Part shown: piece after piece, positions 13,471-61,400 of the stretch
Layout: every line of letters begins with the position of its first letter
How positions within the stretch are numbered: position 1 is the first letter of the stretch
From: Azospirillum brasilense
GTDB taxonomy: Bacteria; Pseudomonadota; Alphaproteobacteria; Rickettsiales; UBA3002
Assembly (NCBI GenBank): GCA_003241645.1
Contig: QFOX01000001.1
Coordinates: 54,475-118,474 of the forward strand
DNA length: 64,000 nt
Reading direction: 5' to 3'
Program-made: the position numbers and the translations under genes
Notes under the pieces: model-generated
The model's input: the letters and a program-made list of their open reading frames with translations, nothing else
What the model was told of the DNA's origin: nothing
The model's database searches: none

Positions 13471-13493
13471 AGTGAGTGACGCGTTGCCGCGTT

Positions 13494-13594
13494 GAAGGGG
13501 GGCGGTGCCACCCCCTTACGCTCGTTGCACTCGCTATCCCCCCTCGCGCGGCGGCTCGCCCTTCGGGCTACGCACCGACTGCATGAACGCTGAG
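13494..13594 (+). repeat. Family-A GC-rich two-hairpin repeat, half element, intergenic copy
   Basis: GAAGGGGGGcggtgccaCCCCCTTA ... CGGCTCgcccttcgggcTACGCAccgacTGCATgaacgctgag. Same architecture as the copies at 32992, 33450, 51621 and 57546. Confidence 0.8.
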
Positions 13595-13607
13595 TATGCG
13601 TCCAAGT

Positions 13608-13637
13608 CTGTCACCCCGTCGTATGACGGGGTCCATC
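13608..13637. repeat. Family-B small palindrome (GTCAyCCCG ... CGGGrTCCA)
   Basis: ctGTCACCCCGtcgtatgaCGGGGTCCAtc. Related units occur at 30212-30300 and 61401-61445. Confidence 0.65.
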
Positions 13638-13798
13638 TTTGGTTCATGTTAGGTGGATGCCGTCATGAAGACAGCATGACGTTACAAGGAATGCATGGTG
13701 TTCGCCTACGCACCCATCCACCGGCCACAAAACTTCGCTTTTGCTTCGGCGCGCGCTGGCGTATATGCATGGCCAACGGATCATCACGAGAGTGCCTT

Positions 13799-30503: not shown

Positions 30504-32480
30504 TCACACCTTCATGGGCATGATGATGAGGTTATGGCCCTTCTGGTGCAGGCGTTTTTGCAGCATGTAGGCGGTCTGGTTGTGCAGCAGCTGGTGCATG
30601 TAGGTTTCGTTGTCGAAGATCAGCTTGGTGGCGAAGAATACGCTGCGCGGGAAGTCCGAGCCGATGCGGTCGGTCAGCCGGTTGATCGTGTCGATCACGT
30701 CGGTGCCGTAATCATGGTAATAGGTGCTGGGCAGGCCGCGGTTGGTGCAGAAATCCACGTAGCGTTTCAGCATGGTCTTGGTGCCGCTGCGCAGCTGGTG
30801 CCAGCGCGCCTCGTCGGAGAATTCCTCGGTGTCGATCTCGCCGACGCTGGCGAACACGAAATTCTTGAACACGCCGGGGAACAGGCGCTGCACCCACAGG
30901 AAGGTGTGCATGCCGCTGGCCGCCGAACTGCCGACGAGGAAAACCGCCGTGGGCTCGCGCGGGTCCATGCGCGGTTTCTCGGCGGGGGCTTTGCTGCTGC
31001 TGGAGAACATGGCGCTGCCCAGTTCTTCCTCGATGGCGTTCATGCGCGTGCTCACCTGATCGTAATGGCGGCGGATCATCAGCCCGAGGCCGATCACCAG
31101 CCCGGTGATGATGACGGTTTTGTAGCCGCCATGGCTGAATTTCTCGATCAGCGTGGTGGTGAGGATGGTGGCGCAGACGATCATGGCGAGGAACACGATC
31201 AGGAACTTGTGCCAGATGCGCGGGTTGCGCCGCTCGCGCCAGCGGTAGCGCGTGATGGAGGCGAGGGTAAGCGTGAAGGTGAGGAACACGTTGATGGAGT
31301 AGAGGATCACCAGCGTGTGCACCACGCCGCCGGTCATCATCAGCGCACCGATGGCGGCGCCGCCCATCAGCAGCACGCCGTTCTTCGTCACCAACCGGTT
31401 CGACAGCGAGCTGAACATGTGCGGCATCCACCGGTCGGCGGCCATGACGGCCAGCACGTTCGGCCCGGCGATGAACCCGGCATTGCCCGCGGTGAACAGC
31501 AGCCCCGCCGCACAAATGAGCGCAAGGCCGGTGAACTCCGCCGAAATATTGATGCCGAGGATGCTCCAATGCTCGGTGATGAGCTTGAAGGCCGTGGCGT
31601 TGAGGGTTTCGCCATCTACCTTCTGCACGTCCCACAGCAGGTAAAGGGTGATGATGCCGCCCGCGGTGAAAGCCAGCGAGAACGCAATGGCCCACATGGT
31701 GGCCTTGCCGGTGCGCACGCGCGGCTCGGCGAAGCTGCGCATGGAACTGGTGACGGCTTCAAGACCCGTATAGGTACCGCCACCCAGCGAGAAGGCCTTG
31801 AAGAACAGCGCGGCCACCGCGAACCAGCCGAAGTCCGACGCCATGCTGCGCGTTTCACTCACCGCGTTGGGCACAATGTCGGCCACGCCTTCGGAATGGC
31901 TGACGATGCCATAAATGATGAGCAGCGCATGGGTGAGCACGAAGCCGAGGAAGATCGGCATGAGGAAGCGGATGGATTCTTTCATGCCGCGCAGGTTCAT
32001 GTACGACATGAAACACACCATGAGAATGGCCACGTACAGCTTATAGGGCTGGTATTCGAACGGCAGCATGGAGAAGATCGCATCCACCCCCGCCGCCACG
32101 GAGATGGCGATGGTCAGCACGTAATCGACAAGCAGCGCGCCGCCGGAGATAAGCCCCACTTTTTCGCCCAGCAGGGTGCTGGCCACGCGGTAGCCGCCGC
32201 CGCCGTTGGGGAACAGCTCGATCACCTGCGTGTAGGCCGCGGCCAGCAGGAACACGGTGAAGGCCGTGGCCATGGCCAGGAAAATCGCAAGGTGGGTGTG
32301 CGCGCCCAGCGCAAGGAAGGCTTCTTCCGGGCCGTAGTTGGCGGAAGAAATTGCATCCGCGCCGATGCCGACCCACGCGAAGAAGGTAATGAGCGCGAGG
32401 TGGTGGCGCGTGTCGGCGCGGAACGGGTCGAGCGGTGCACCCATGAGGGTGCGCTTGATGGATGAAAGTTTCAACGCCAT
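30504..32480 (-). CDS. APC-superfamily permease with large C-terminal cytoplasmic domain (KimA-like architecture)
   Basis: I use the ATG at 32480 (MALKLSSIKRTLMGAPLDPF). About 12 TM segments (FPNGGGGYRVAS, LLVDYVLTIAISVAAG) are followed by a soluble domain of about 200 aa. Confidence 0.7.
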   Translation of the reverse strand: MALKLSSIKRTLMGAPLDPFRADTRHHLALITFFAWVGIGADAISSANYGPEEAFLALGAHTHLAIFLAMATAFTVFLLAAAYTQVIELFPNGGGGYRVASTLLGEKVGLISGGALLVDYVLTIAISVAAGVDAIFSMLPFEYQPYKLYVAILMVCFMSYMNLRGMKESIRFLMPIFLGFVLTHALLIIYGIVSHSEGVADIVPNAVSETRSMASDFGWFAVAALFFKAFSLGGGTYTGLEAVTSSMRSFAEPRVRTGKATMWAIAFSLAFTAGGIITLYLLWDVQKVDGETLNATAFKLITEHWSILGINISAEFTGLALICAAGLLFTAGNAGFIAGPNVLAVMAADRWMPHMFSSLSNRLVTKNGVLLMGGAAIGALMMTGGVVHTLVILYSINVFLTFTLTLASITRYRWRERRNPRIWHKFLIVFLAMIVCATILTTTLIEKFSHGGYKTVIITGLVIGLGLMIRRHYDQVSTRMNAIEEELGSAMFSSSSKAPAEKPRMDPREPTAVFLVGSSAASGMHTFLWVQRLFPGVFKNFVFASVGEIDTEEFSDEARWHQLRSGTKTMLKRYVDFCTNRGLPSTYYHDYGTDVIDTINRLTDRIGSDFPRSVFFATKLIFDNETYMHQLLHNQTAYMLQKRLHQKGHNLIIMPMKV

Positions 32481-32654
32481 ACCATTCCTCGTGAACGCGC
32501 GCTGCGCGACGGCCCGGCACATGCCGGAAAAGCAGGGAAATTTGCCGTTGGGTAGTCCCGTTTATTGCATTGCGCAACAGGAACATGGCTTTTTCAATGT
32601 TTTCAGACCATTACATTGCTGGAGTGTGGCCCCCATTCGCGCTATGAGGGGCGC

Positions 32655-34718
32655 ATGCAGCACGCAACCGCCCATGTTCCGCATCCGCAGATCACCGTCG
32701 ATGCCGACGGCACCGCGCGCTCGCTGGCGTTCGACGATGTGTATTTCTCGGCGCGTGGCGGCGTGGCGGAAACCGAGCATGTATTCCTTGCCGGAAACGG
32801 CTTGCCCGAGCGTTGGCAGGGCTGTGGGCGTTTCACCATCGGTGAGTTGGGCTTTGGCACGGGCCTGAATTTTTTGGTGGCAGCGGATGCGTTCCTGCGC
32901 ACCAACCCCACCGGCACGCTGCATTTCCTGTCGGTCGAGAAATACCCGCTGACGCCTGCGCAATTGCGCGAGGCGTACGCTGTTCTATCTCAAGGGGGGC
33001 TTGCCCCCCCTTCGCCTGCTGCGCAGGCTACCCCTGCCGCTTCGCGGCTCGCGCCACTCGACGGCGCTACGCAGGCAGATACGAACCTTGTTACGCTGGC
33101 TGAAGCGCTATGTGCCGCCTATCCGCTGCGCTTGCCGGGCTGGCACCGGGTGAAGCTGGGCCGTGTGCAGCTGACGCTTGGCTTCGGCGATGTGGCCGAA
33201 CTGCTGCCGCAAATGGATGCGCGCGTGGATGCATGGTTCCTCGATGGGTTCGCCCCCGCGAAGAACGACGCGATGTGGAGCGCCGCCGTGCTTTCCGAGC
33301 TGGCGCGCCTGAGCGCGCCGGGCGCGCGCTTCGCCACGTTCACGGCGGCCGGTGCGGTGAAACGTGGCCTGCAGGAAGTGGGTTTCGATGTGCAGAAAAC
33401 CCGCGGTTTCGCGTATAAGCGCGACATGCTGGTGGGGAGATATATTTCCGAAGGGGGGCTTGCCCCCCCTTCGCCTGCTGCGCAGGCTACCCCCGCCGCC
33501 AGCGGCTCGCGCCACTTCGGCGCTACGCATCGACTGCATCAGCGCTGCGAGGATACTGTGCGAGGGCAGCAGCCCGAGCCAGCCATGAGCCAGCGGAGCT
33601 GCGCGGAGGCATCGCACAGCACGTGCGATCTGCCGGAGCAAGCGAAAGAAATCCTCATCATCGGCGCGGGCATTGCGGGGGCGACCACGGCGCGCGCGCT
33701 GGCCGAGCGTGGCTACCGCGTGCAGCTGTTCGAGGCGGCCACCATCGCCAGCGGTGCTTCGGGCAATCCGGCGGCGGTGCTCTACCCGCAACTGACCAAA
33801 TATTATGGGCCCGCCACCGCGTGGCATTTGCAGGCGTACAGCTTTACATTGCAGCAACTGGCGCATTGGAAGCAGGCGGGGCTGGCGTTCGCGTGCGAAC
33901 AGCCGGGCATGCTGAAGCTGGCGACCGACGCGGCGGATGCGGAAAAACTGCGCGGCTTGCAACACAGCCTGCAGCTGGACCCGGCCATTGCCCGCTGGGT
34001 GGAAGCGGATGAAGCCAGCGCCATGCTGGGCCATGCCGTGCCACATGGTGGTTATTATTTTGCGCAGGGCACGTGGCTGAACCCCGCGCAGCTATGCAAC
34101 GCCTTGCTGCAGCATGCGCACATTACAGTGAGGGAAAACTGCGCCGTGCAGCATATCGCGCGGGGCGATGCGGGGTGGCAGCTGACGCTGGCAGATGGCA
34201 CCACGCACCATGCCGCGCAGCTGGTGGTGGCGAATGCGAACGATGCGCGGCGCCTGCTGGACAGCGATGCGCTGGATATTCGCCCCTCTGCCGGGCAGGT
34301 GAGCCTGCTGGAGCCGACGGCGCTTGCACCTTCGTTGCCGCATATCCTCTGCCATAAAGGCTATGCGATCCATACGCCGCAAGCGCTGCTGCTGGGCGCG
34401 ACCTATGACCGCGCGGATCTCTCGTGCGCGGTGACGGAAGCGAACCATGCGCACAATATCAATGAGTTACAGCGTGCATTGCCGCAGGCAGTGCTGCGTG
34501 GGCAGGCCACGGGCGGCCGCACGTCGCTGCGCGCGACCACGCCGCACCGCCTGCCGTATGTGGGGCAAGTGCAGCCGGGGCTGTATGTGAATGTGGGGCA
34601 TGGCTCGCGCGGCATGATCTCCGCGCCGCTTGCGGCCGAGATCCTCGCCAGCGAGATGGCGGGCGAACCGCTGCCGATCAGCCGTGCGCTGCGTGCGGCG
34701 CTTCAGCCGCCACGCTGA
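32655..34718 (+). CDS. mnmC: Bifunctional tRNA mnm5s2U34 methyltransferase / FAD-dependent cmnm5s2U34 oxidoreductase, carrying two in-frame repeat insertions
   Basis: I use the ATG at 32655. The MnmD part has GELGFGTGLNF and VDAWFLDGFAPAKNDAMW. The DAO part has ILIIGAGIAGATTARAL and GASGNPAAVLYP. The peptide GGLAPPSPAAQATPAAS is duplicated. Confidence 0.88.
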   Translation: MQHATAHVPHPQITVDADGTARSLAFDDVYFSARGGVAETEHVFLAGNGLPERWQGCGRFTIGELGFGTGLNFLVAADAFLRTNPTGTLHFLSVEKYPLTPAQLREAYAVLSQGGLAPPSPAAQATPAASRLAPLDGATQADTNLVTLAEALCAAYPLRLPGWHRVKLGRVQLTLGFGDVAELLPQMDARVDAWFLDGFAPAKNDAMWSAAVLSELARLSAPGARFATFTAAGAVKRGLQEVGFDVQKTRGFAYKRDMLVGRYISEGGLAPPSPAAQATPAASGSRHFGATHRLHQRCEDTVRGQQPEPAMSQRSCAEASHSTCDLPEQAKEILIIGAGIAGATTARALAERGYRVQLFEAATIASGASGNPAAVLYPQLTKYYGPATAWHLQAYSFTLQQLAHWKQAGLAFACEQPGMLKLATDAADAEKLRGLQHSLQLDPAIARWVEADEASAMLGHAVPHGGYYFAQGTWLNPAQLCNALLQHAHITVRENCAVQHIARGDAGWQLTLADGTTHHAAQLVVANANDARRLLDSDALDIRPSAGQVSLLEPTALAPSLPHILCHKGYAIHTPQALLLGATYDRADLSCAVTEANHAHNINELQRALPQAVLRGQATGGRTSLRATTPHRLPYVGQVQPGLYVNVGHGSRGMISAPLAAEILASEMAGEPLPISRALRAALQPPR
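32992..33073 (+). repeat. Family-A repeat, in-frame copy 1 inside mnmC
   Basis: AAGGGGGGcttgCCCCCCCTTCgcctgctgcgcaggctacccctgccgcttcgCGGCTCgcgccactcgacggcgcTACGCA. Translated as GGLAPPSPAAQATPAASRLAPLDGATQ. Confidence 0.85.
33450..33551 (+). repeat. Family-A repeat, in-frame copy 2 inside mnmC (interdomain linker)
   Basis: The first 43 nt (from 33451) are identical to copy 1. It then reads ...CGGCTCgcgccacttcggcgcTACGCAtcgacTGCATcagcgctgcgag. Translated as EGGLAPPSPAAQATPAASGSRHFGATHRLHQRCE. Confidence 0.85.
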
Positions 34719-35514
34719 GCGCGGCCGTGTCGGCGAAGCCTTCCTTTAGGAAAAGGCCTGCATAGCGGGCGATGTCTTCCGCATCCGTCACGTAGGCGAG
34801 GGGTGGCTGCGTGGTCGTGTGCAGTGGTGGTTTCAGGGCTTGGCGGGCAATGGCCATGCTGGAATCGATCCACGTGACGGGCCATGGCGCATGGCGGGCC
34901 AGCAGGTCGGCCACCAGCGGGTAATGCGTGCAGCCGAGAATGACCTGATCGGTGCGGCCCTTTGCATCGTCGTGGAAGCAGGGCGCGATCTCGGCCTGCC
35001 ACACGGCGTCGTCCACCCGCTCGCCGCGCAGGTGGGCTTCGGCCATGCGCGCAAGGTTGGGCGCGCCGTAGCAATCCACCACGCAATCGCTGGCGAATTG
35101 GGCGATGAGCTCGCGCGTGTAGCGGCTATGGGCGGTGTTGGGCGTGGCAAGCAGCGTGAAGCGTCCGGTCTGCGACTGGCTGGCCGCCACCTTCACGGCG
35201 GGCACCGTGCCCACGAAGGTAATCGCCGGAAACGCACTGCGCAACGCGGCCAGCGCCAGCGTTGAGAGCGTATTGCAGGCGACCACCACTTGCGCGACAC
35301 TATGCTTTTCCTGCAACGCTGCGATCAAAGAAATGCCGCGCGCGATGATGCTTTCAGCCGAACGATTCCCATAAGGAAATGCTGCCGTATCAGCCACATA
35401 AAGCGCCGGATGCTGCGGCGAAAGCTGGCGCATGGCGCGCACCACCGACAGGCCGCCCAGCCCGGAATCGATCACTACCATGCATGGAGTGTTATGTTGC
35501 GTTGCACTTGCCAT
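34678..35514 (-). CDS. murI: Glutamate racemase
   Basis: VIDSGLGGLSV, VVACNTLST and ILGCTHYPL carry the two catalytic Cys motifs. The start is uncertain (35514 or 35562). Its 3' end overlaps the mnmC 3' end by 41 nt. Confidence 0.88.
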   Translation of the reverse strand: MASATQHNTPCMVVIDSGLGGLSVVRAMRQLSPQHPALYVADTAAFPYGNRSAESIIARGISLIAALQEKHSVAQVVVACNTLSTLALAALRSAFPAITFVGTVPAVKVAASQSQTGRFTLLATPNTAHSRYTRELIAQFASDCVVDCYGAPNLARMAEAHLRGERVDDAVWQAEIAPCFHDDAKGRTDQVILGCTHYPLVADLLARHAPWPVTWIDSSMAIARQALKPPLHTTTQPPLAYVTDAEDIARYAGLFLKEGFADTAALSVAAEAPHAAHG

Positions 35515-35578
35515 TTCGCTTTCATTTTTGCATGATAGAGGCTCATACGTTGAATCGCACAAAAAGGAAAGGGCTGCC

Positions 35579-36634
35579 GTGGTTGCCGAACGTGCATTTT
35601 CCTCTCCCTGGACGCTGTCTTCGCCTTATTGGATCGTGATCGCGGGCATGCCCAGCGCGGCGCAGGGCTGGAAGAATGCCGCCACCAAAGCAGGGTTGAA
35701 GCCGCTGGCCGACCACCCCGATTACTACGCCATGCAGACCTCGCCGGAATGGGCGACCGAATGGGAACGGATTCTGGCTGCGCTCAACAGCGTGGCCGAC
35801 GAGAGCGGCCTGAAAGCGGCCATCATCGCGGCTGATAAGCCACCCAGCAGTAAAGAGATCAGCTTCAACCTGCGCCCGCTGCAAGCGGTGCAGGAGGTGG
35901 TGGAGCATCTGTGGCTGCTGGACCACCTGAGCGAGGACCGGCTGGTCTGCTATTTCCAGCGCGTGATCGACCGGCGCAGCAAGCAGGTGGGGTTCGAGGC
36001 CTTCGCGCGCATCGCGCAGGGCGACGGCAATATTATTGGCGGTGCGGCGATCATGCGCGCCAGTCATGCGCTGAAGGTGGAATACCAGGTCGATCGCCGC
36101 ATGCACAAACAGGCGATCGACACGTTCGCCGCCTGCGACCTTGACGGCTACATCTTCGTCAACTTCCTCACCGGCTTCATCCATCGCCCGGAAGTGTATC
36201 TCGAGGGGCTGAGCCAGGCGGTGGAACGCCACCACCTGATGCCGCGCAGCATCGCGCTGGATGTGCCGCTGACCGATTACGTGCGCGACATTGCCAAGCT
36301 GCGCTCCATTGCGGGTTATTGCCACGCGCGCGGGTTCTCGCTGTCGCTGGATGATGTGATGACGCCCGAAGGGCTCGGCAACCTGCTGTCGGATATTCGC
36401 CCCTCCATCGTCAAGCTGGATGGCAAGCTCGGCCCCGCGTTCATGGACGTGAAGCGGCAGGGGCCCGTGCTGGAGATCATCCGCTTAGCCCACAATGCCG
36501 GGGCGCTGGTGCTGGCCGAAGGCGTGGAGAACGAAGCGCTGTTCCAGGCCTATGTGCAGGCCGGGGTGGATATGTTCCAGGGCTACCATATCGGCGCGCC
36601 CGAGCTGTTCACGGCCAAAGACTGCAGCAAGTGA
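35579..36634 (+). CDS. EAL-domain protein (variant motifs) directly upstream of Tad locus 2
   Basis: EAL-fold motifs are FQRVIDRRSKQVGFEAFARI (EAF in place of EAL), SLDDVMT (in place of DDFGTG), VKLD, AEGVENE and FQGYHIG. I chose the GTG at 35579 because AGGAAAGG lies upstream. An alternative ATG is at 35648. Confidence 0.65.
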   Translation: MVAERAFSSPWTLSSPYWIVIAGMPSAAQGWKNAATKAGLKPLADHPDYYAMQTSPEWATEWERILAALNSVADESGLKAAIIAADKPPSSKEISFNLRPLQAVQEVVEHLWLLDHLSEDRLVCYFQRVIDRRSKQVGFEAFARIAQGDGNIIGGAAIMRASHALKVEYQVDRRMHKQAIDTFAACDLDGYIFVNFLTGFIHRPEVYLEGLSQAVERHHLMPRSIALDVPLTDYVRDIAKLRSIAGYCHARGFSLSLDDVMTPEGLGNLLSDIRPSIVKLDGKLGPAFMDVKRQGPVLEIIRLAHNAGALVLAEGVENEALFQAYVQAGVDMFQGYHIGAPELFTAKDCSK

Positions 36635-48686: not shown

Positions 48687-49966
48687 TTGCCGTATTCGCC
48701 GTCCTTCAGCCAGGGGCGGTGGTTCATCGGCTTGCCGAAATAATACCCCTGAAGCTGGTCGACCCCGAGCTCCATGAGCATTTTGGCGATCTCGCCATTC
48801 TCAACGAACTCGGCGACCGACTTCAGGCCGAAGCCGCGCGTGAAATCGAGCAGCATTTTCACGAAGAAACGCGAATCGGCATTGTCGGTCAGGTCACGAA
48901 TGAAGCTGCCGTCGATCTTCACCATGTCGAGCGAGAGCATTTTCAGCTGGCGGAAGCTGGTGTAGCCCGAGCCGAAATCATCCAGCGCGATGAGTGCGCC
49001 CGTCATTTGCACTTCGGCGCAGAAGAACGCCATGTGCTTCAGGTCGCGGTGCATCGCGGTCTCGGTGATTTCCACGATCAGGCGCGGGCCGATCTCGGGC
49101 GTTTCATCGGTCGCCTGCTTCAGCATGGCCAGCCAGCTGGGGTCCTGCGTGGTCAGGTTCGACACGTTCAATGCCAGCTGCACGTGCTTGTCGTTGCGCA
49201 GTTCGGCGACCACTTTTTCCAGCACTATCTTGTCGATCATCGGCATCAGCCCCATGCGCTCGGCCACGGGAATGAGCATGCCGGCGGAGCTGATCTTGCC
49301 CTCATCCGAATAGAGGCGCAGCAGGGCCTCGTAATGCGCGACCTCGCCGGATTTGCTGTCGATCACCGGCTGGTAGGCAAGGCGCAGGCGGTTTTCTTTC
49401 ATGGCCTGCCCAAGAATGTTGGCGATGCCCATTTCCTCGCGCTGTTCCACGCCGGAAATATCCTGCCGCAGGCGGTTTTCGTCCTTCTCTTCGGTCAGCG
49501 CCACCAGTGTGCGCGCCAGTAATTCTTCGGCGGTGCCGTGCGCGTCGGGCAGCATCTGGTACGCGTAGCGGCTCAGGCAATGCAGCTCGCCATAGCGCGA
49601 ATCGTAGCTGTAGGTGCGGATCGCGTCCTGCACGTCGTGGCACCATTGCTGCACCTGCCGCTCCAGCATGCCATGCAGCAAAATGCCGAACTGGTCGCGC
49701 TGCACGCGGGCGAGCTGCCCGTTCTCCAGCTTGCTGCCGATCACTTCCTCGATCTCTTTCATCACGGCTTCGGCCACCGCCATGGAATAACCGCTCATGA
49801 TCATGGGCAGGTTATCGATGGAGAAAAGGATGATGGTGGCGGGCAGTTGTTTCGTGCGCGCGTCGGATTCCAGCTGCGCCAGCGCTTCCACAAAGCGCTG
49901 CGGGTAGCCGCAGCTGCCAAGGGCAGGGGTGCTCGTTGCGGGGTCGGATTGCGAACGCCAGAACAT
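48683..49966 (-). CDS. Degenerate-GGDEF / EAL domain protein (putative c-di-GMP phosphodiesterase)
   Basis: EAL motifs are intact (YQPVIDSKSGEVAHYEALLRL, IALDDFGSGYTSF, VKIDGSFI, LQGYYFGKP). The GGDEF position reads RVQRDQFGILL. The start is uncertain (49966, 50029 or 50050). Confidence 0.8.
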   Translation of the reverse strand: MFWRSQSDPATSTPALGSCGYPQRFVEALAQLESDARTKQLPATIILFSIDNLPMIMSGYSMAVAEAVMKEIEEVIGSKLENGQLARVQRDQFGILLHGMLERQVQQWCHDVQDAIRTYSYDSRYGELHCLSRYAYQMLPDAHGTAEELLARTLVALTEEKDENRLRQDISGVEQREEMGIANILGQAMKENRLRLAYQPVIDSKSGEVAHYEALLRLYSDEGKISSAGMLIPVAERMGLMPMIDKIVLEKVVAELRNDKHVQLALNVSNLTTQDPSWLAMLKQATDETPEIGPRLIVEITETAMHRDLKHMAFFCAEVQMTGALIALDDFGSGYTSFRQLKMLSLDMVKIDGSFIRDLTDNADSRFFVKMLLDFTRGFGLKSVAEFVENGEIAKMLMELGVDQLQGYYFGKPMNHRPWLKDGEYGN

Positions 49967-50134
49967 AGGGGTGGGGTTGAATCGGTTGCGGGTGTTTTGT
50001 TTTATATGGCAAATTGCCGGAACAGGCATCTTGCCACACTTCTCACCCACTGTGAAGCAGCACGGTGATTTTGCCAGCCGCGCGGCACAAAAGACCCATG
50101 AAATTGCATGAAAAATTGCCGACCTGCGGCAGGA

Positions 50135-51010
50135 TTACGACAAATTAGGAAATGCTGCAGTAACCAGCAGCGCGACGAACAGGCAAAGCCCGAGCCACTG
50201 GTTGCTGCGAAACAGCTGGCCGCCACGCATGCTTCCCGGCAACAATGCGTTCGCCTGGCTGGCCTGCCAGCCCATATGCACCGCCACGGCGATCAACGCC
50301 AGCTGCACCGGCCATGCATAGCGCTCGGCAAGGATGCAGGCGGCAAGCCAGAACAGCAACGCCGCCCCATAGCAGGCGAGGGTGAACCACTGCAGGCGCG
50401 CGCCCGTGCCAACCCGCCGCGCGGTGGATTTGATGCCCACGCTGGCATCGTCGGGCATGTCCTGCACGGCGTAGAGCGTGTCGTAGCCCAGCGTCCAGAA
50501 GAAGCAGCCCGCATAGAGTAGCAGCGGGGCGAGGGCGAGGGGCTGGCCCGTCGCCGCCCAGCCGATGAGGGCACCGAAATTGAAAGTCAGGCCAAGGAAG
50601 GCCTGCGGCCAGAAGGTGAGCCGCTTCATCCACGGGTAGGCGGCGATCAGCGGCACAGCGCACAGCGCCAGCCACACCACCTGCATGGGCAGCACCAGCG
50701 CCAGCAGCAGCGCATTGAAGGCCAGCACGAACAGCAGCACGCCCGCATCGCGCACGGAAATCTCACCACTGGCAAGCGGGCGGGTGCGTGTGCGTTCCAC
50801 CTGCGCGTCAAGCCTGCGGTCGGTGAGGTCGTTGATGATGCAACCCGCCGCGCGGGTAATGGTCGCGCCCAGCAGCATCAGCGCCAGAAGGTCCCACCGC
50901 AGCGGGGCGGGGGCCAGCAGCATGCCCCACGCCGCCGGGAAAAACAGCAGCCAGATGCCGATGGGCTTGTCCATGCGCATCAGGCGCAGATAGGGGCGAA
51001 CGCGTTGCAT
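50135..51010 (-). CDS. ubiA: 4-hydroxybenzoate polyprenyltransferase
   Basis: 291 aa. Contains MRMDKPIGIWLLFFPAAWG, the Asp-rich motif GCIINDLTDRRLD, and YDTLYAVQDMPDD. Confidence 0.9.
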   Translation of the reverse strand: MQRVRPYLRLMRMDKPIGIWLLFFPAAWGMLLAPAPLRWDLLALMLLGATITRAAGCIINDLTDRRLDAQVERTRTRPLASGEISVRDAGVLLFVLAFNALLLALVLPMQVVWLALCAVPLIAAYPWMKRLTFWPQAFLGLTFNFGALIGWAATGQPLALAPLLLYAGCFFWTLGYDTLYAVQDMPDDASVGIKSTARRVGTGARLQWFTLACYGAALLFWLAACILAERYAWPVQLALIAVAVHMGWQASQANALLPGSMRGGQLFRSNQWLGLCLFVALLVTAAFPNLS

Positions 51011-51055
51011 AAAACGCTACTAGCATGAATCCCACGCGGGCGGTAAAGAGAAACG

Positions 51056-52036
51056 ATGCACCCAAAACCCCGCCAGCGCCTCGCCATCGACCATGCCCTG
51101 CAACCGGGCGCTGCCCTGCAGCTGGAGGGCAACCACGCGCATTACCTTGGGCATGTGCTACGTGCCCAGCCCGGCGAGCATGTGGCGCTGTTCAACCGCA
51201 CCGACGGCGAATGGCTGGCGCAGATCACCGAGGTGAAGAAAAAATCCATTGCCCTGCAACTGGTGGCGCAGACCAAGGCGGCGCAGGTCGGGGTGGATAT
51301 GTGGGTCGCGTTCGCGCCCATCAAGGGCGGCAGGCTGGAGACGATCATCGAGAAAGCGACCGAACTGGGCGCGGCGCAACTGCACCCGGTGCTGACGCAG
51401 CGCACCATCGTGGACAAGGTGAATGCGGAACGCGCCGAATCCATCGCCCGTGAAGCCGCCGAGCAATGCGAACGCACCGACTGGCCGCTGATCCACGCGC
51501 CGCAGAAACTGGCGCAATGGCTGGGCAGCTTCCCCACCGACCGCGTGCTGATCTATGGCGATGAAACGGGGGGCGGCGTAGCCCTTCAAGATGTATTACG
51601 TGGGCACCTGCGGTGCCTTGAAGGGGCTGCGTCCCCTTCGCCCGCCAATGGCGGGCTGACCCCTCCCGCAAGCGGCTCGGCCTTACGGCCTACGCAAGAA
51701 ATGCATCAACCCCGAGAGGATACGGCGCGTAGCGCGGAAGCGCGAGCCGCCGCGCGAGGGGGGTCAGCGACCGAAGGAAGCGAAGGGGGTGGGCTTGCGC
51801 CCCCCTTCATGCCCGAAGGGCAACCTATAAAATGGGCCATTCTCGCGGGGCCGGAAGGCGGCTTCACGCCGGACGAACTGGCCATGCTGCGCCATTGCAA
51901 ACAGGCGCGCGGCGTTTCTTTGGGGCCGCGCATCTTGCGGGCAGACACCGCCATCATTACATTGGCGGCCATGACATTGGCGGCGTGGGGTGATTGGCAC
52001 CGTGCACCACGCTTTGAAGGGGGCATTCCATCATGA
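51056..52036 (+). CDS. rsmE: 16S rRNA (uracil1498-N3)-methyltransferase RsmE carrying an in-frame repeat insertion
   Basis: 326 aa. The N-terminal PUA-like part has HAHYLGHVLRAQPGEHVALFN and the SPOUT part has FAPIKGGRLETIIEKATELGA and WAILAGPEGGFTPDE. About 65-80 extra residues lie between DETGGG and WAILAGPEGG. Confidence 0.85.
   Translation: MHPKPRQRLAIDHALQPGAALQLEGNHAHYLGHVLRAQPGEHVALFNRTDGEWLAQITEVKKKSIALQLVAQTKAAQVGVDMWVAFAPIKGGRLETIIEKATELGAAQLHPVLTQRTIVDKVNAERAESIAREAAEQCERTDWPLIHAPQKLAQWLGSFPTDRVLIYGDETGGGVALQDVLRGHLRCLEGAASPSPANGGLTPPASGSALRPTQEMHQPREDTARSAEARAAARGGSATEGSEGGGLAPPFMPEGQPIKWAILAGPEGGFTPDELAMLRHCKQARGVSLGPRILRADTAIITLAAMTLAAWGDWHRAPRFEGGIPS
51621..51809. repeat. Family-A repeat, complete two-armed palindromic copy, in frame inside rsmE
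   Basis: Left arm is GAAGGGGctgcgtCCCCTTC...CGGCTCggccttacggccTACGC. The centre contains ATGCAT. Right arm is GCGTAgcgcggaagcgcGAGCCG...GAAGGGGGtgggcttgcgCCCCCCTTC. Confidence 0.85.
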
Positions 52037-53304
52037 ACCAACCGGCACTCCAGCCTGCGGCCACGCCGCCGGCCATTCTTGACCGCCTGCGCGACCTGCT
52101 GGCCAGCCGCAGCGATGAGATCACCGCATGGATGGATGCGCGGCGCATGGAATCCGGCGCGCCGTTCTATTCGTCGGTCGATCTGCGGCATGCGGGCTAT
52201 AAACTCGCTCCCGTGGACACCAACCTGTTCCCGGCAGGGTTCAACAAACTCAGCGCTGCAGCCCGCCAGCGCGCGGCCCTGCATGCGCGCGCCCGCTTCA
52301 CGCGCTGCAACCAGCCGATCACGCGCGTGCTGCTGATCCCCGAGAATCATACGCGCAACCAGGGCTATCTGGATAATCTCGGCGCGCTGAAATCGGTGCT
52401 GGAAGCGGGCGGGGCGGAAGTGGTGATTGGTAGCCTTGCGGCGCAGCCGGGCCAGCCCATTGCCTTGCAGACCAGCACCGGCGAAGATTTGCTGCAGCAA
52501 CCGCTGGTGCGTGAGCGCAGCATGCTGGCCACCGAATCGGGCTTCGTACCGCAGATGATCGTGCTGAACAACGACCTCACCTCGGGCCTGCCGGATGTGT
52601 TGCGTGGCGTGAGCCAGCCTATCCAGCCGCGGCCCAGTCAGGGTTGGCACCGCCGCCGCAAATCCATCCATTTCGATGCGTACGCCAAGCTGGTGCGCGA
52701 ATTCGCCGATGCGTTCGCGCTTGATCCGTGGCTGCTCGACAGCGTGTCGCACAAATGCGGCCGCGTGAATTTTGGCGAACGGCAGGGCCTCGAATGCGTG
52801 GCCATGGGCGTGGAAAAAGTGCTGCACAATGTGCGCAGCAAATACGCCGAATACGGCATTACCGATGAGCCGTATGTGTACGTGAAATCTGACGCGGGCA
52901 CCTATGGCATGGGCATCATGACGGTGAAATCCGGCGACGAGATGCTGGAGCTGAACAAGAAGCTGCGCAACAAAATGAACGTCATCAAGGAAGGCGTGCA
53001 ATCCACCGAAGTGGTGATCCAGGAAGGCATTCCCACCATTGATGTGGTGGATGGCGCACCGGCCGAGCCGATGCTGTATCTGATGGATGGGCACGCCGTG
53101 GGCGGAGCCTACCGCGTGAACCGCGAGCGCGATGCGCAGGGCAATTTGAACGCCACCGGCATGGAATTCGTCGGCATGTGCGACGAGGGCGAAGACGGCA
53201 AAGCCAAAATGCCCAGCTGCCATTTCGGCGCGCTGGGGCTTATTGCCGAGCTGGCCTCACTCGCCGCCCCGCGCGAAGAATACGGCGAGAGCTATTCCAT
53301 TTAG
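52033..53304 (+). CDS. gshA: Glutamate--cysteine ligase (GshA-type family)
   Basis: 423 aa. Contains FYSSVDLRHAGYKLAPVDTNLFPAGFN, PENHTRNQGY and YVYVKSDAGTYGMGIMTV, which I recall as the GshA-type glutamate-cysteine ligase family. ATGA overlap with rsmE. Confidence 0.7.
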   Translation: MNQPALQPAATPPAILDRLRDLLASRSDEITAWMDARRMESGAPFYSSVDLRHAGYKLAPVDTNLFPAGFNKLSAAARQRAALHARARFTRCNQPITRVLLIPENHTRNQGYLDNLGALKSVLEAGGAEVVIGSLAAQPGQPIALQTSTGEDLLQQPLVRERSMLATESGFVPQMIVLNNDLTSGLPDVLRGVSQPIQPRPSQGWHRRRKSIHFDAYAKLVREFADAFALDPWLLDSVSHKCGRVNFGERQGLECVAMGVEKVLHNVRSKYAEYGITDEPYVYVKSDAGTYGMGIMTVKSGDEMLELNKKLRNKMNVIKEGVQSTEVVIQEGIPTIDVVDGAPAEPMLYLMDGHAVGGAYRVNRERDAQGNLNATGMEFVGMCDEGEDGKAKMPSCHFGALGLIAELASLAAPREEYGESYSI

Positions 53305-53339
53305 TGACGGGTGAGGCGTGAGGTGTGAGGTGTGAGGTG
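53305..53339 (+). repeat. Tandem heptamer repeat GTGAGGY x5
   Basis: gtgacgg gtgaggc gtgaggt gtgaggt gtgaggt, starting 1 nt after the gshA stop. Degenerate inverse copies (..cctcac..) follow after an AT-rich spacer. Confidence 0.8.
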
Positions 53340-53395
53340 TCGGATTTCATCTGACTAAATTACCACTCACTATTCACGCATCACCACGCACTTCC

Positions 53396-54907
53396 TCACG
53401 CCGCGTCGAGCCACTTGCCCTGCGGCTGCTGGCGATACGAAAGCGCTTCGGACAAATGCAGTTTGCTCACCGCAGCGCTGCCTTCAAGGTCGGCAATGGT
53501 GCGCGCCATGCGCAGCACGCGCGTGAGCCCACGCATGGAGAGATGGAGCTGTTTCGTGGCGCCCTCAAGCAAGCTATGCGCCGCCCCATCCAGCTGCGTG
53601 CGCTGTTGCAGTGCCTCGCCGCTCAGCGTGGCGTTGATGCAGCCTTGCCGCACCTGCTGCGCCTGCCGTGCGGCCGCCACACGCTTGGCCACCACGGCGC
53701 TCGGCTCGGCCGATTCGCGGCTCAGCATGGCCAGCGTATCCATCGCGGGGACTTCGACATGCAGGTCGATGCGATCCAGCAGCGGGCCGGATATTTTGCT
53801 CTGGTAGTCGCCCGCGCAGCGCGGCGCTTTGCTGCAGGCGCGCTCGGCGTCGCTCAGGTAACCGCAGCGGCAGGGGTTCATCGCCGCGATCAGCTGGAAC
53901 CGTGCCGGGTAGGTGACATGCATGGCCACGCGCGCCACGCTGATGGTGCCGGTCTCCAGCGGCTGGCGCAGCGATTCCAGCACCGCGCGGGGGTATTCGG
54001 GCAGCTCATCCAGAAACAGCACGCCGTGATGCGCCAGCGAAATTTCACCGGGCACGGCGCGTTTGCCGCCGCCCACCATGGCGGCCATGGAGCTGGAATG
54101 GTGCGGGTCGCGGAAGGGCCGCGCGCCGCTGAATTCGCCCTTCACCAGTTTGCCCGCGACCGAGGCAATGAGGTTCGCCTCCAGCATTTCTTCGGCGCTC
54201 ATGGGCGGCAGAATGCCCGGCAGACACGCCGCCAGCATGGATTTGCCCGAGCCGGGCGGCCCGATCATCAGCAAATTATGGCCACCGGCCGCGGCAATTT
54301 CCAACGCGCGCTTGGCCATGGCCTGCCCGCGCACTTCGGCCAAGTCCGGCCCACGATGCGCCACCGCCATGCTGCGGATCTCCGGCGGGCTTAGCACCTG
54401 CTGGCCTTTCACATGGTTGATAATGGCCAGCAGCGAGCTTGCGGCCCACACATCCAGCTCACCGGCGAAGGCGGCCTCGGCACCGTTGCCTGCCGGGCAG
54501 ATGAGCCCGCGGCCTTGCGCACTGGCGGCAAGCGCGGCGGGCAGCACGCCGGCCACTTCCTGCAACCGCCCGTCGAGCGCCAGTTCGCCCAGCGCCAGCA
54601 TGCGCTCGGTCGCATCTTCCGGCAGCATCTGCATGGCAACCAGCAGGCCCAGCGCGATGGGCACGTCGAAATGCGAGCCTTCCTTGGCCACATCCGCCGG
54701 GGCGAGGTTGACGAGGATTTTCTTTGCAGGCAGCTGCACGCCCATGGAGGCGAGCGCCGCGCGCACCCGTTCGCGCGATTCGCGCACGGTGTTGTCCGGC
54801 AGGCCGACGATGGTGAAGGCGGGAAGGCCCGCACCCAGATGCACCTGCACCTCGACCGGGATGGTTTCAATGCCCTGGAAGGCAACGGTGTGGATGCGCG
54901 TGACCAT
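53396..54907 (-). CDS. comM: YifB/ComM family Mg-chelatase-like AAA+ ATPase
   Basis: 503 aa. Lon-like N-domain, Walker A LLMIGPPGSGKSMLA, Walker B HHGVLFLDELPE, then ARFQLIAAMNPCRCGY. Confidence 0.9.
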   Translation of the reverse strand: MVTRIHTVAFQGIETIPVEVQVHLGAGLPAFTIVGLPDNTVRESRERVRAALASMGVQLPAKKILVNLAPADVAKEGSHFDVPIALGLLVAMQMLPEDATERMLALGELALDGRLQEVAGVLPAALAASAQGRGLICPAGNGAEAAFAGELDVWAASSLLAIINHVKGQQVLSPPEIRSMAVAHRGPDLAEVRGQAMAKRALEIAAAGGHNLLMIGPPGSGKSMLAACLPGILPPMSAEEMLEANLIASVAGKLVKGEFSGARPFRDPHHSSSMAAMVGGGKRAVPGEISLAHHGVLFLDELPEYPRAVLESLRQPLETGTISVARVAMHVTYPARFQLIAAMNPCRCGYLSDAERACSKAPRCAGDYQSKISGPLLDRIDLHVEVPAMDTLAMLSRESAEPSAVVAKRVAAARQAQQVRQGCINATLSGEALQQRTQLDGAAHSLLEGATKQLHLSMRGLTRVLRMARTIADLEGSAAVSKLHLSEALSYRQQPQGKWLDAA

Positions 54908-55011
54908 CGTAACTCGCGGCTGGATCTATGGACGATGGCGGCGCTAAAAACGTGATCGCCGCATATAAAGCGAACCTTACGTGCCGCAGGATTATTTGCA
55001 ATGGCTTAAAT

Positions 55012-55051
55012 AAAAAGGGAGTCCGATTCCCCGAAGGAAAAAGGACTCCCC
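55012..55051 (-). terminator. Rho-independent terminator of the small secreted-protein gene
   Basis: The minus strand reads GGGAGTCCtttttccttcggggaatcGGACTCCC followed by TTTTTATTT. A second hairpin, AACGGTTA...TAACCGTT, lies at 55053-55079. Confidence 0.7.
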
Positions 55052-55093
55052 CAACGGTTAACCCGAAAGGCTAACCGTTGTGTGGTTCAGCAG

Positions 55094-55420
55094 TCAGGCC
55101 GCGGCGATGGCGAGAGCAGGCGTGCTCTGCCGACGAAGCGACGTGAATGCGGCGGCAGCGTTGCGGGCATAGGCGATGGCGCGCGCGGCAGCGACCCCGA
55201 GGAGGCCGATGGTCGTGTGCGGATCGTTCTGCGTGCGCAAAGCGGTGCCTTCGATGCCGATGAGCTGCTGCGAGCCGGAAGCGGTGCGCATATCATTCAG
55301 CGGTTCGATCGCGCCGGAGCCGGGCATGGGGTTGCTGGCATCGCGGTTCAGTTCCTTGTTCGCCGACATAGCGAGCGCGGGCGTGGACATAGCGAGAGCA
55401 GCCAACAGTACTTTCCTCAT
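55094..55420 (-). CDS. Small secreted protein (108 aa), unknown function
   Basis: I use the ATG at 55420 with GGAG 9 nt upstream. Signal peptide is MRKVLLAALAMSTPALA. The C-terminus RRQSTPALAIAAA echoes the signal-peptide string STPALA. Followed by a good terminator. Confidence 0.55.
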   Translation of the reverse strand: MRKVLLAALAMSTPALAMSANKELNRDASNPMPGSGAIEPLNDMRTASGSQQLIGIEGTALRTQNDPHTTIGLLGVAAARAIAYARNAAAAFTSLRRQSTPALAIAAA

Positions 55421-55737
55421 GGTAGTCACTCCAAATAAGGGAACGGAAAAAACCGAACCCGAAACACTGCCCCGTACGCATTCCGAATGAATGGGTGCGG
55501 AAAGATTTTTTCGAACCTCTGAAAATGAGTTCACGTTCTAAAAATCAAAACAGCGGGCGCAGGCTAGCCAGCCGGTTCATAAGCATCACGTGAAGATTTG
55601 GTGACGGTGGCGCCCTGATAAAATCAATGGCTTAGCGGTGCCATGGGCCGGATTTTGCTGAAAAATGTGCATAAAAAGCCAAATCCTAACGTTTCTTCAA
55701 AGCTTTGTTCATGGTTCCTTAACCGCCAGCGGCGATA

Positions 55738-57522
<1,785 letters not shown>

Positions 57523-57545
57523 TTCGCGATTGGCCTGCGGCACGA

Positions 57546-57631
57546 GAAGGGATCTGCTATCCCTTCGTCGCCTCCGGCTCCTTACCCTTTCCGTTCACTT
57601 CGTTCACGGCTCGCGCCATAAAGCGCTACGC
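57546..57631 (+). repeat. Family-A repeat, half element, intergenic copy
   Basis: GAAGGGAtctgctaTCCCTTCgtcgcctccggctccttaccctttccgttcacttcgttcaCGGCTCgcgccataaagcgcTACGC. Confidence 0.75.
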
Positions 57632-57690
57632 GTTATGTAAAACCTGTGTATAGGGCGTAGGTTTAGTTGCAGTGACCCCCCAGATTTAGT

Positions 57691-58392: not shown

Positions 58393-58395
58393 CTA

Positions 58396-59208: not shown

Positions 59209-59217
59209 ATGTCCATG

Positions 59218-61388: not shown

Positions 61389-61400
61389 GCTCTATTCCTT

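What the first reader, a model, noticed from the sequence alone, without database searches (positions are those of the whole stretch)
32992..33551. Two in-frame copies of the same repeat inside mnmC, one in a loop and one in the interdomain linker
MnmC contains the peptide GGLAPPSPAAQATPAAS twice. The underlying DNA (from 32992 and from 33451) is identical for 43 consecutive nt: AAGGGGGGCTTGCCCCCCCTTCGCCTGCTGCGCAGGCTACCCC. It then continues as diverged versions of the CGGCTC-hairpin-TACGCA module.

- Copy 1 lies within the MnmD methyltransferase half, between LREAYAVLS and LVTLAEALCAAYPLRLPGWHRV. That region is short in E. coli MnmC as I recall it.
- Copy 2 expands the linker between the methyltransferase half (...KRDMLVGRY) and the FAD-binding GxGxxG (ILIIGAGIAG) to about 70 aa.

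Both copies are read in the same frame at the first hairpin (xGG..PPSP), which is also the frame used in rsmE (EGAASPSP). After the first hairpin an indel shifts copy 1 relative to copy 2, yet both stay open. Two independent insertions in one essential-pathway gene suggest an active or recently active element and selection for open, tolerated insertions.
Basis: partly seen in the sequence, partly recalled or inferred. Interest (0 to 1): 0.68.

Follow-up and report, generated by a model that had tools for sequence, protein, structure and literature searches.

The report
Hairpin repeat element inserted inside genes
The tRNA-modification gene mnmC of this uncultured alphaproteobacterium carries two in-frame copies of a hairpin-rich selfish DNA repeat that also sits in other housekeeping genes, a new family of a phenomenon already known from Rickettsia palindromic elements and intragenic REP sequences.

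Summary
A 43-nt exact direct repeat lies at 32992 and 33451 inside an intact MnmC gene.

It belongs to a mosaic repeat family. Each arm is about 80 nt and has four or five hairpins, ending in CTACGCA. Arms occur singly, as inverted doublets, or joined to a second module that I call R2.

- **Copy 1:** a solo arm giving a 31-aa insertion in a methyltransferase-domain loop.
- **Copy 2:** a complete ~191-nt element (arm + centre + R2) that makes up nearly the whole expanded interdomain linker.
- **Orthologs:** 12 of 13 MnmC orthologs lack both insertions.
- **Structure:** AlphaFold predicts only the two inserts as disordered.

The window holds three more loci: a full palindromic element in rsmE and two intergenic arms 22 nt past stop codons. 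Related metagenome-assembled genomes (MAGs) carry arms in frame in carB, priA, rsmE, mnmC and other genes. Hairpin stems covary.

A ~90%-identical relative lacks one intergenic arm. Its rsmE element is a chimera whose right half matches mnmC copy 2. The family has therefore moved or recombined recently.

The frame used is not the only open one, yet sense arms are always read as E/Q-G-G.

Verdict: a new family of a known kind (RPE / intragenic REP). The mobilising enzyme was not found.

The parts
32655..34718 (+). mnmC gene (bifunctional tRNA mnm5s2U34 methyltransferase / FAD oxidoreductase), host of both copies. It is intact.
   Evidence: ORF. It is 100% identical to NCBI MAG protein DI582_00415, with Pfam PF05430 + PF01266. 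PDB MnmC 3pvc/3awi match at E 1e-86. AF2 gives pTM 0.83.
32990..33073 (+). Copy 1: a solo arm (hp1, hp2, hpX, hp3, CTACGCA), read in frame as QGGLAPPSPAAQATPAASRLAPLDGAT. A probable remnant of the centre module (GGCAGATACGAAC) follows to about 33086. Together they give a 31-aa insertion in a loop of the methyltransferase domain.
   Evidence: Covariance model (CM) R1 scores 84.8 bits, E 7.5e-15. Absent from all 13 orthologs. Lies between 3pvc residues 115 and 120. AF2 block-mean pLDDT is 57, 46 and 45 for residues 111-140. Centre similarity seen.
33449..33529 (+). Copy 2, left arm (EGGLAPPSPAAQATPAASGSRHFGAT).
   Evidence: CM R1 scores 85.6 bits, E 5e-15. It is 89% identical to copy 1 and 88% identical to an arm in carB of another MAG.
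33530..33556 (+). Copy 2, centre module (TCGACTGCATCAGCGCTGCGAGGATAC).
   Evidence: The same module follows the arms at 13575 and 51697 and follows the arm in the relative's rsmE element.
33557..33639 (+). Copy 2, R2 module: a GCG-AG hairpin followed by GAGCC, then CCATGAGCCAGCGGAGCTGCGCGGAG, then the hairpin ATCGCAC-agcac-GTGCGAT. Together with the arm and the centre it forms a ~191-nt element, which is almost the whole extra linker.
   Evidence: Window 33455-33639 (arm, centre and R2) is 88% identical to the rsmE element of the relative, L124 2878-3064. The R2 motif also occurs in L120 with a compensatory hairpin variant, and in P0241 of the same MAG. AF2 pLDDT<50 at residues 268-329 corresponds to nt 33456-33641.
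51603..51822 (+). Full palindromic element inside rsmE (gene 51056..52036). Modules: hp0 51603-51617, left arm 51619-51696, centre 51697-51725, inverted right arm 51726-51809, hp0' 51810-51822. It adds about 70 aa in one loop.
   Evidence: CM hits of 63.7 and 60.4 bits. The insertion lies between PDB 4j3c residues 196 and 211. Ortholog alignment. The single-strand fold has z -4.66. The right boundary comes from the relative.
13479..13594 (+). Intergenic copy: hp0 (ACGCG-ttgc-CGCGT), arm 13493-13574 and centre. The arm starts 22 nt after the stop codon of a methyltransferase ORF, on the same strand.
   Evidence: CM R1 scores 51.4 bits. Sequence and ORFs.
57523..57631 (+). Intergenic solo arm with a leader, about 109 nt (arm 57545-57632). 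It lies directly after the stop codon of a histidine-kinase ORF and is flanked by the direct repeats GTGATGTAG (57514-57522) and GTTATGTAA (57632-57640). The ~90%-identical relative lacks it.
   Evidence: CM R1 scores 37.3 bits, E 1e-5. Empty site in L117. ORFs.

Best explanation
The two mnmC repeats are copies of a non-autonomous, hairpin-rich mosaic repeat element. It is REP/BIME-like in architecture and placement, and RPE-like in being translated inside genes. It populates the genomes of an uncultured alphaproteobacterial clade.

**Anatomy**
- The unit is an ~80-nt arm of four hairpins separated by conserved single-stranded linkers:
  - hp1: GAAGGGG-loop-CCCCTTC
  - hp2: optional
  - hpX: GCCGC-loop-GCGGC
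  - hp3: a variable hairpin between CTCGC and GCTACGCA
- An extra hairpin, hp0, often lies upstream.
- A centre module follows the arm. After it comes either an inverted arm, giving a cruciform doublet, or a second module, R2.

**How it most likely works (inferred steps)**
1. Copies are made at the DNA level and land both between genes and inside genes.
2. Genic copies survive only if they keep the reading frame, fall in surface loops or interdomain linkers, and are read in a frame that gives a Gly/Pro/Ala/Ser-rich flexible peptide.
3. Copies at different loci also exchange sequence by recombination or gene conversion.

**In mnmC**
- Copy 1 is a solo arm in a methyltransferase-domain loop.
- Copy 2 is a complete arm-centre-R2 element that forms the long interdomain linker.
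- The enzyme's two domains are untouched.

**Mobilising activity**
It was not found. I consider a structure-specific single-strand DNA enzyme acting in trans (RAYT / IS200-605-like HUH transposase) the most likely, because of the GTAG-tagged hairpin, the covarying stems and the REP-like organisation. This step is inference.
For: **Shown**
- *Family membership.* CM R1 finds 6 arms in the window and 46 more in related loci: 31 in 19 genome loci, 1 in L113 and 14 in 10 metagenome loci; window hits are.
- *Hairpins covary.* On alignment A5, 88.6% of cells pair, against 44-51% when partners are slid. 19 of 25 pairs have double changes, and 0 of 500 shuffles reach the observed values. That alignment was fitted to the model.
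- *The CTACGC tag is conserved.* 22 of 27 arms that were not selected for it still carry it.
- *Organisation.* Arms occur as singlets, as inverted doublets with 23-29-nt spacers (coordinates; sequences), and as a tandem triplet in L100. They also sit at all three gene junctions of an ABC transporter operon.
- *Insertion status in mnmC and rsmE.* The inserts are absent from 12 of 13 MnmC orthologs. RsmE orthologs range from 251 to 326 aa, with full, left-only, right-only or no element in the same loop.
- *In-frame copies in relatives, confirmed by Pfam:* CarB in two MAGs at the same loop, PriA in two MAGs (one with two arms), a pyridine-nucleotide oxidoreductase, RsmE, an inositol monophosphatase, and an ABC permease tail.
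- *Tolerance.* AF2 gives pLDDT<50 only at residues 1-4, 124-137 and 268-329; pTM is 0.83.
- *Frame bias without stop-codon constraint.* Five of six frames are open across the arm. Yet 8 of 8 verified sense arms read hp1 as E/Q-G-G, and 6 of 8 antisense arms begin RS[AV].
- *Recent dynamics against a ~90%-identical syntenic relative.* The arm at 57545 is missing there and the site is flanked by a 9-nt direct repeat matching 7 of 9. The relative's rsmE element keeps the window's left arm but carries the R2 half seen in mnmC copy 2.
- *Another copy in the same MAG* is annotated as an 80-aa hypothetical protein.
- *Not a described RNA family.* Rfam gives nothing at the gathering or E-value thresholds.

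**From the literature**
- RPEs insert in frame in Rickettsia genes (PMC10969869).
- GTAG- and CGTC-tagged REPs occur inside genes, sometimes twice in one gene, and usually lie less than 20 bp after ORF ends (PMC3733652).
Against: - No transposase of any kind was found. tblastn with recalled IS200 TnpA and E. coli RayT sequences gave nothing in the window or the family loci. That is a weak test on under 300 kb.
- The single filled/empty pair shows a TSD-like 9-nt direct repeat. This fits a DDE transposase, or slippage between repeats, better than a Y1/HUH enzyme, which makes no duplication.
- In doublets the GTAG tags face the centre. The most conserved parts (hp1, hpX and the linkers) are not the GTAG hairpin.
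- Elements recur at the same loops in different species (rsmE, carB, the mnmC linker). This could mean old vertically inherited insertions rather than frequent transposition.
- The left arm in rsmE differs at 1 of about 80 nt between genomes that differ by about 10% overall. That hints at selection or gene conversion rather than neutral junk.
Confidence: 0.8

Rival explanations
1. Classical MITE. The arms are the long terminal inverted repeats of a deletion derivative of a DDE-type insertion sequence. That IS's transposase moves them by cut-and-paste or copy-and-paste and leaves a target-site duplication of about 9 bp.
For: Doublets have ~80-nt inverted arms around a short centre. The one filled/empty comparison shows a 9-nt direct repeat, 7 of 9 identical, flanking the insert.
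Against: - The polymorphic insert is a solo arm, not a unit bounded by inverted repeats.
- No duplication is visible around the genic doublets.
- Solo arms, tandem arrays and arm+R2 forms are common.
- Stems vary with compensation while the linkers stay fixed, which is unusual for transposase-binding inverted repeats.
- No parent IS was seen in about 300 kb of held sequence.
Confidence: 0.2
2. Host-beneficial or domesticated element. The hairpins are kept because they act in the mRNA (stability, processing, or translational pausing at domain boundaries), or because the encoded flexible peptides serve as linkers. Copies would then be maintained by selection rather than merely tolerated.
For: - Hairpins covary even inside coding sequence.
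- The rsmE left arm is far more conserved than its flanks between relatives.
- The same loops are occupied across many species.
- Intergenic copies sit 22 nt after stop codons, like mRNA-stabilising REPs (PMC3733652).
- Copy 2 lies exactly at the MnmC domain boundary.
Against: - Most orthologs do without the inserts.
- The insertion state is highly variable in the same loop: full, half or none.
- Host proteins are unrelated to one another.
- One copy is missing in a close relative with no visible consequence.
- Conservation can be explained by gene conversion among copies, which is seen directly.
Confidence: 0.12
3. No mobile element. The duplicated peptide arose by local duplication or slippage of a low-complexity coding segment within mnmC, or it is an assembly artefact.
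For: The two copies are only 459 nt apart and on the same strand. They are more alike (89%) than any other pair of arms in the window.
Against: - Homologous arms occur in other genes, between genes and on both strands, in this window and in at least 7 other MAGs and in metagenome contigs.
- An arm in carB of another MAG is as similar (88%) to the mnmC copies as they are to each other.
- DNA conservation exceeds peptide conservation.
- The DNA between the copies is collinear, conserved MnmC sequence.
Confidence: 0.02

Closest known systems
Rickettsia palindromic elements (RPE-1 to RPE-10; Ogata et al. 2000, as summarised in PMC10969869)
   Same: Both are palindromic repeats of about 100-200 nt in an alphaproteobacterium. 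Both insert in frame into unrelated housekeeping genes and are translated as extra peptides in positions compatible with the fold. Both are also found between genes.
   Different: This family is GC-rich (60-77%) and its hosts have 52-63% GC. It is built of four or five short covarying hairpins plus the alternative R2 module. Sequence similarity to RPE consensus sequences was not tested. The hosts are not the genus Rickettsia, although NCBI labels several of the MAGs 'Rickettsiales bacterium'.
GTAG-tagged REPs / REPINs mobilised by RAYTs, and E. coli BIMEs (PMC3733652; PMC3116915)
   Same: - A short hairpin is tagged by GTAG (on the minus strand: GCGTAG-stem-loop-stem).
- Stems vary with compensating changes.
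- Units occur as singlets, inverted dimers (TT type here) and tandem groups.
- Placement is just after ORF 3' ends and at operon junctions.
- Intragenic copies occur, including double insertions in one gene and insertions in replication genes (priA here).
- Different hairpin motifs are combined into mosaics.
   Different: - The unit is about 80-110 nt with several hairpins, not one 20-40-nt palindrome.
- The GTAG hairpin is not the best conserved part.
- No RAYT gene was found.
- One insertion site shows a 9-nt direct repeat.
- The genic fraction looks unusually high: 3 of 5 loci in this window.
CGTC-tagged REPs of Alphaproteobacteria (CGTC-1 and CGTC-4 correspond to RPE-6 and RPE-4; PMC3733652)
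   Same: The hp1 body fits the CGTC body plan. Its stem is about 8 bp, the first two pairs are A-T, and the loop is often 4-5 nt. The host class and the intragenic occurrence also match.
   Different: The defining CGTC tag and the CCA tail are absent. Here the flanks are TG/CG on the 5' side and CGC on the 3' side.

Membership tests
Rickettsia palindromic elements (RPE) | Palindromic repeat of about 100-150 bp present in many copies | tested here: met
   The rsmE element is a 220-nt inverted doublet whose fold has z -4.66. The CM finds 6 arms in 64 kb and 46 more in related loci.
Rickettsia palindromic elements (RPE) | Inserted in frame in protein-coding genes and read through as extra peptide | tested here: met
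   mnmC (twice) and rsmE in the window. carB, priA, rsmE and others in relatives. Translation itself is inferred from the intact ORFs and was not measured.
Rickettsia palindromic elements (RPE) | Insertion sites compatible with the protein fold (surface loops or linkers) | tested here: met
   AF2 confidence is low only in the two inserts. The gaps fall in loops of PDB homologs.
Rickettsia palindromic elements (RPE) | Sequence homology to an RPE family consensus | not tested
   No RPE consensus sequence was available in the tools. The GC content (60-77%) makes homology unlikely, but that is inference.
GTAG REP / REPIN-RAYT system | Short imperfect palindrome with a terminal GTAG tag | tested here: met
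   The minus strand of hp3 reads GCGTAG followed by a 4-6-bp stem. 22 of 27 arms not selected for the tag carry TACGC. The hairpin is only one module of a larger unit.
GTAG REP / REPIN-RAYT system | Singlets, inverted dimers and clusters, mostly just downstream of ORFs | tested here: met
   Two window copies start 22 nt after stop codons. However, 3 of the 5 window loci are intragenic.
GTAG REP / REPIN-RAYT system | Cognate single-copy RAYT (Y1/HUH transposase) gene flanked by the repeats | tested here: inconclusive
   tblastn with recalled RayT and IS200 TnpA sequences gave no hit in the window or the family loci. The whole genome was not available.
GTAG REP / REPIN-RAYT system | Insertion without target-site duplication | tested here: inconclusive
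   The one filled/empty pair shows a 9-nt direct repeat, 7 of 9 identical. The genic doublets show none.
CGTC REP | Terminal CGTC (or TGTC/CCTC) tag and a CCA tail around an 8-9-bp stem that begins with A-T pairs | tested here: not met
   The hp1 stem fits, but its flanks are TG/CG and CGC, not CGTC and CCA (definition from PMC3733652).
MITE derived from a DDE insertion sequence | Terminal inverted repeats, a target-site duplication, and a related autonomous IS | tested here: inconclusive
   Inverted arms are present in the doublets. There is one TSD-like repeat. No parent IS was seen. Solo arms and R2 forms do not fit this model.
Intein or self-splicing intron | Intein splicing motifs, or a group I/II intron RNA structure | tested here: not met
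   The inserts are 28-65 aa of low-complexity peptide. Rfam finds no intron family above noise.

The most novel reading that the evidence does not exclude
The hairpins may be under selection in their own right inside coding sequence. The arm would then be the substrate of an undescribed structure-specific enzyme, or a functional mRNA element, that recognises a multi-hairpin unit. The family would be kept uniform across species by gene conversion. It might also be an evolutionary bridge between REPs and the in-frame RPEs of Rickettsiales, and would act as a clade-wide generator of linkers and loops in housekeeping proteins.
Probability: 0.12. Interest if true: 0.7.

Novelty: new member of a known kind. 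Interest (0 to 1): 0.5.

Why it matters
**Scope.** In-frame colonisation of housekeeping genes by palindromic repeats is not confined to Rickettsia or to a few REP-rich species. It also occurs, at apparently high density, in a GC-rich uncultured alphaproteobacterial clade.

**Practical consequences.**
- It explains unusually long loops and linkers in that clade's proteins.
- It explains spurious "hypothetical proteins" such as DI582_02635.
- It warns against reading such inserts as lineage-specific functional domains.

**A usable test system.** The pairing with a ~90%-identical relative gives a natural setting to measure gain, loss and gene conversion of such elements. It could also test whether selection acts on the peptide, on the DNA or RNA structure, or on neither.

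Tried and rejected
- **Rfam** at gathering and permissive thresholds: only two tRNAs and noise. ARAGORN found no tRNA-like gene at the repeats.
- **Early idea that the 3' half of copy 2 is a decayed inverted arm: rejected.** The CM finds no antisense arm there. The same sequence recurs as a conserved module, R2, in the relative's rsmE, in L120 and in P0241.
- **Protein-level census with element peptides: failed.** The word-indexed search found only one more copy in the same MAG. The exhaustive phmmer search gave two spurious low-complexity hits.
About 80% of the returned loci were chance coding matches, for example a conserved DPFAGGG methylase motif. The source genome itself was not among them.
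- **Viral contigs:** one pattern hit with no CM support, so a chance match.
- **Transposase search** with recalled Y1 sequences: nothing.
- **Further filled/empty pairs** (L115/L070 and L120/L088) were too diverged to define boundaries.
- **GC3 heuristic** for calling genic copies was too strict for the lower-GC hosts. I replaced it with Pfam checks.
- **Terminator and promoter scan** around the 13.5-kb copy: nothing.
Full report
**1. The observation**

The 43-mer AAGGGGGGCTTGCCCCCCCTTCGCCTGCTGCGCAGGCTACCCC occurs exactly twice in the window, at 32992 and 33451 on the + strand. None of 100 dinucleotide-preserving shuffles gave any match. Identity extends to 49 nt with one mismatch.

A gapped alignment carries the similarity about 82 nt, to a shared ...GCGGCTCGCGCCACT..CGGCGCTACGCA. 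Two indels, of 1 nt and then 2 nt, shift and then restore the reading frame.

Both copies lie in one long ORF.
- It is identical to NCBI protein DI582_00415 of a MAG labelled "Azospirillum brasilense".
- It carries the Pfam domains of MnmC.
- It matches solved MnmC structures at E 1e-86.

**2. The copies are insertions**

I aligned the protein with 13 orthologs of 53-63% identity.
- Copy 1 is a 31-residue insertion absent from all 13.
- Copy 2 lies in an interdomain linker that is about 55-60 residues longer than in 12 of them.

Against PDB 3pvc the gaps fall between residues 115 and 120 and between residues 254 and 264.

An AlphaFold2 model built from that alignment has pTM 0.83. It has pLDDT below 50 only at residues 1-4, 124-137 and 268-329. 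These correspond to the N-terminus and the two inserts. Both catalytic domains are predicted confidently.

**3. What the repeat is**

A search for the CGGCTC-hairpin-CTACGCA module found more copies at 13552 and 51673.

I aligned five window arms with 15 arms from other genomes. The alignment shows conserved single-stranded linkers between hairpins whose stems differ from copy to copy.
- hp1: GAAGGGG-loop-CCCCTTC
- hp2: an optional hairpin
- hpX: GCCGC-loop-GCGGC
- hp3: a variable hairpin between CTCGC and GCTACGCA

I built a covariance model (R1) from this alignment. Run over the window with filters off, it finds six arms.
- The two arms in mnmC.
- Two arms in inverted orientation inside rsmE (51619-51696 on +, 51726-51809 on -).
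- Two intergenic arms at 13493 and 57545. Each starts 22 nt after the stop codon of the upstream gene, on the same strand.

Evidence on the hairpins:
- On 31 further arms from related loci, 88.6% of cells pair, against 44-51% when the 3' partners are slid.
- 19 of 25 pairs show changes on both sides, and no shuffle reaches the observed values. This alignment was fitted to the model.
- Of 27 arms that were not selected for CTACGC, 22 still end in TACGC. On the other strand this reads as a GTAG tag next to a hairpin.
- Rfam has no matching family.

**4. Copy 2 is a whole element**

After CTACGCA, copy 2 continues with a centre module (TCGACTGCATCAGCGCTGCGAGGATAC). The same module follows the arms at 13575 and 51697.

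I first took the next ~80 nt for a decayed inverted arm. That was wrong. A metagenome contig (JGI Ga0075012_10002574; loci L117 and L124) is about 90% identical to, and collinear with, window 48747-63994.

Its rsmE carries an element with two distinct halves.
- The left arm is identical to the window's rsmE left arm apart from one base.
- From hp3 onward it follows mnmC copy 2. Window 33455-33639 is 88% identical to L124 2878-3064, and the match is closest from hp3 onward.

The same module, which I call R2, recurs elsewhere.
- In L120, where its hairpin carries compensatory changes.
- In an 80-aa "hypothetical protein" (DI582_02635) on another contig of the same MAG.

Copy 2 is therefore a complete arm-centre-R2 element, 33449-33639. 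The AlphaFold low-confidence segment corresponds to nt 33456-33641.

In rsmE the element is the palindromic form: hp0, left arm, centre, right arm and hp0', spanning 51603-51822. It folds as a long cruciform with z -4.66 and adds about 70 residues between 4j3c residues 196 and 211.

**5. Distribution**

It returned true family members only from MAGs that NCBI labels "Rickettsiales bacterium" or "Azospirillum sp.". These comprise seven assemblies with 52-63% GC. All other returned loci were chance matches in coding DNA.

Ten metagenome contigs added 14 more arms. Arms occur as singlets, as inverted doublets with 23-29-nt spacers (coordinates), and as a tandem triplet. They also occupy all three gene junctions of an oligopeptide ABC operon.

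Pfam confirms in-frame copies in several genes of relatives.
- CarB in two MAGs, at the same loop but with arms of opposite orientation.
- PriA in two MAGs, one with two arms.
- A pyridine-nucleotide oxidoreductase.
- RsmE, a full element in the same loop as in the window.
- An inositol monophosphatase.
- The C-terminal tail of an ABC permease.

RsmE orthologs range from 251 to 326 residues. In that one loop they carry a full element, a left arm only, a right arm only, or nothing.

A syntenic relative (P0027, L113) has a single degenerate arm in the MnmC linker, read in the same frame.

**6. Reading frames**

Across the arm, all three sense frames and two of three antisense frames are free of stop codons. 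The third antisense frame holds the TAG of GCGTAG. The frame used is therefore not forced by stop codons.

Even so, the usage is biased.
- All eight verified sense arms read hp1 as E/Q-G-G.
- Six of eight verified antisense arms begin RS[AV].
- Internal indels sometimes shift the frame and then restore it.

The preferred frames encode Gly/Pro/Ala/Ser-rich peptides. The other frames encode Arg/Cys/Leu-rich ones. I infer selection on which peptide is tolerated.

**7. Recent dynamics**

Compared with the ~90%-identical relative, two differences bear on this family.
- The window has a 109-nt insert (leader plus the arm at 57545) that the relative lacks. It is flanked by GTGATGTAG and GTTATGTAA, where the relative has a single GTCATGTAA.
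- The rsmE element has exchanged its right half.

The two mnmC arms are 89% identical to each other and 88% identical to an arm in carB of a different MAG. Their likeness therefore reflects a conserved subfamily. Whether they arose by two transpositions or by local copying or conversion cannot be decided.

**8. Comparison with what is known**

Rickettsia palindromic elements are the classic in-frame palindromic insertions (PMC10969869). Di Nocera et al. (PMC3733652) described GTAG- and CGTC-tagged REPs with these properties:
- They lie mostly less than 20 bp after ORF ends.
- They form dimers and clusters.
- They show compensatory stem variants.
- They occur inside genes, including double insertions in one gene and insertions in replication and repair genes.

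The present family shares these properties and has a GTAG-tagged hairpin. It differs in that its unit is a larger mosaic of several hairpins. It lacks the CGTC tag, and no RAYT or other transposase was found (a weak test). I file it as a new family of a known kind. Its mobilisation mechanism is unresolved.

**9. Limits**

- The source genome could not be searched as a whole, so copy number and genic fraction are extrapolated from 64 kb.
- Translation of the inserts is inferred from the intact ORFs.
- The target-duplication evidence rests on one site.
- Homology to RPE consensus sequences was not tested.

Noticed in passing
window 53305-53399: A ~95-nt palindrome made of GTGAGG repeats and their complement lies between convergent gshA-like and Mg-chelatase-like genes. 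It is absent from the ~90%-identical relative (L117 1360/1361). It belongs to a different repeat family from the mnmC element.
   Followed up: partly
window ~61380-61560: About 180 nt of four consecutive hairpins, two of them with AGTA loops (for example TTTCCAAAAGCC-AGTA-GGCTTTTGGAAA). The segment is present here but replaced by about 40 nt in the relative (L117 9230-9270). It looks like another hairpin-rich intergenic insertion.
   Followed up: partly
L110 4389-7358 (-), residues 652-756 of the PriA ORF: The PriA of a related MAG carries two arms of the element. It also has an inserted DUF559 / REase_MTES_1575 endonuclease-like domain (Pfam E 4e-38).
   Followed up: no
P0241 (DI582_02635, on another contig of the same MAG): This annotated 80-aa hypothetical protein is simply a translated copy of the element (arm in a different frame, then centre, then R2). 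It is probably a false gene call.
   Followed up: partly
L007 3762-7301 (-), CarB of 'Rickettsiales bacterium P.bin.123': Besides the arm, this CarB has other unexplained extra segments, for example 'gggswvvsgedksrptthhtphtakmp'. These suggest further insertion families in housekeeping genes of the clade.
   Followed up: no
window 13595-13640: Downstream of the 13.5-kb copy lies a perfect 8-bp hairpin, ACCCCGTC-gtat-GACGGGGT. It contains a CGTC motif, was not matched by the model and has no T-run after it. Its relation to the element is unknown.
   Followed up: no
window 30504-36634 and L113: The gene order amino-acid permease(-), mnmC(+), glutamate racemase(-), EAL-domain gene(+) is conserved in the distant relative GCA_049317085.1.
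   Followed up: partly
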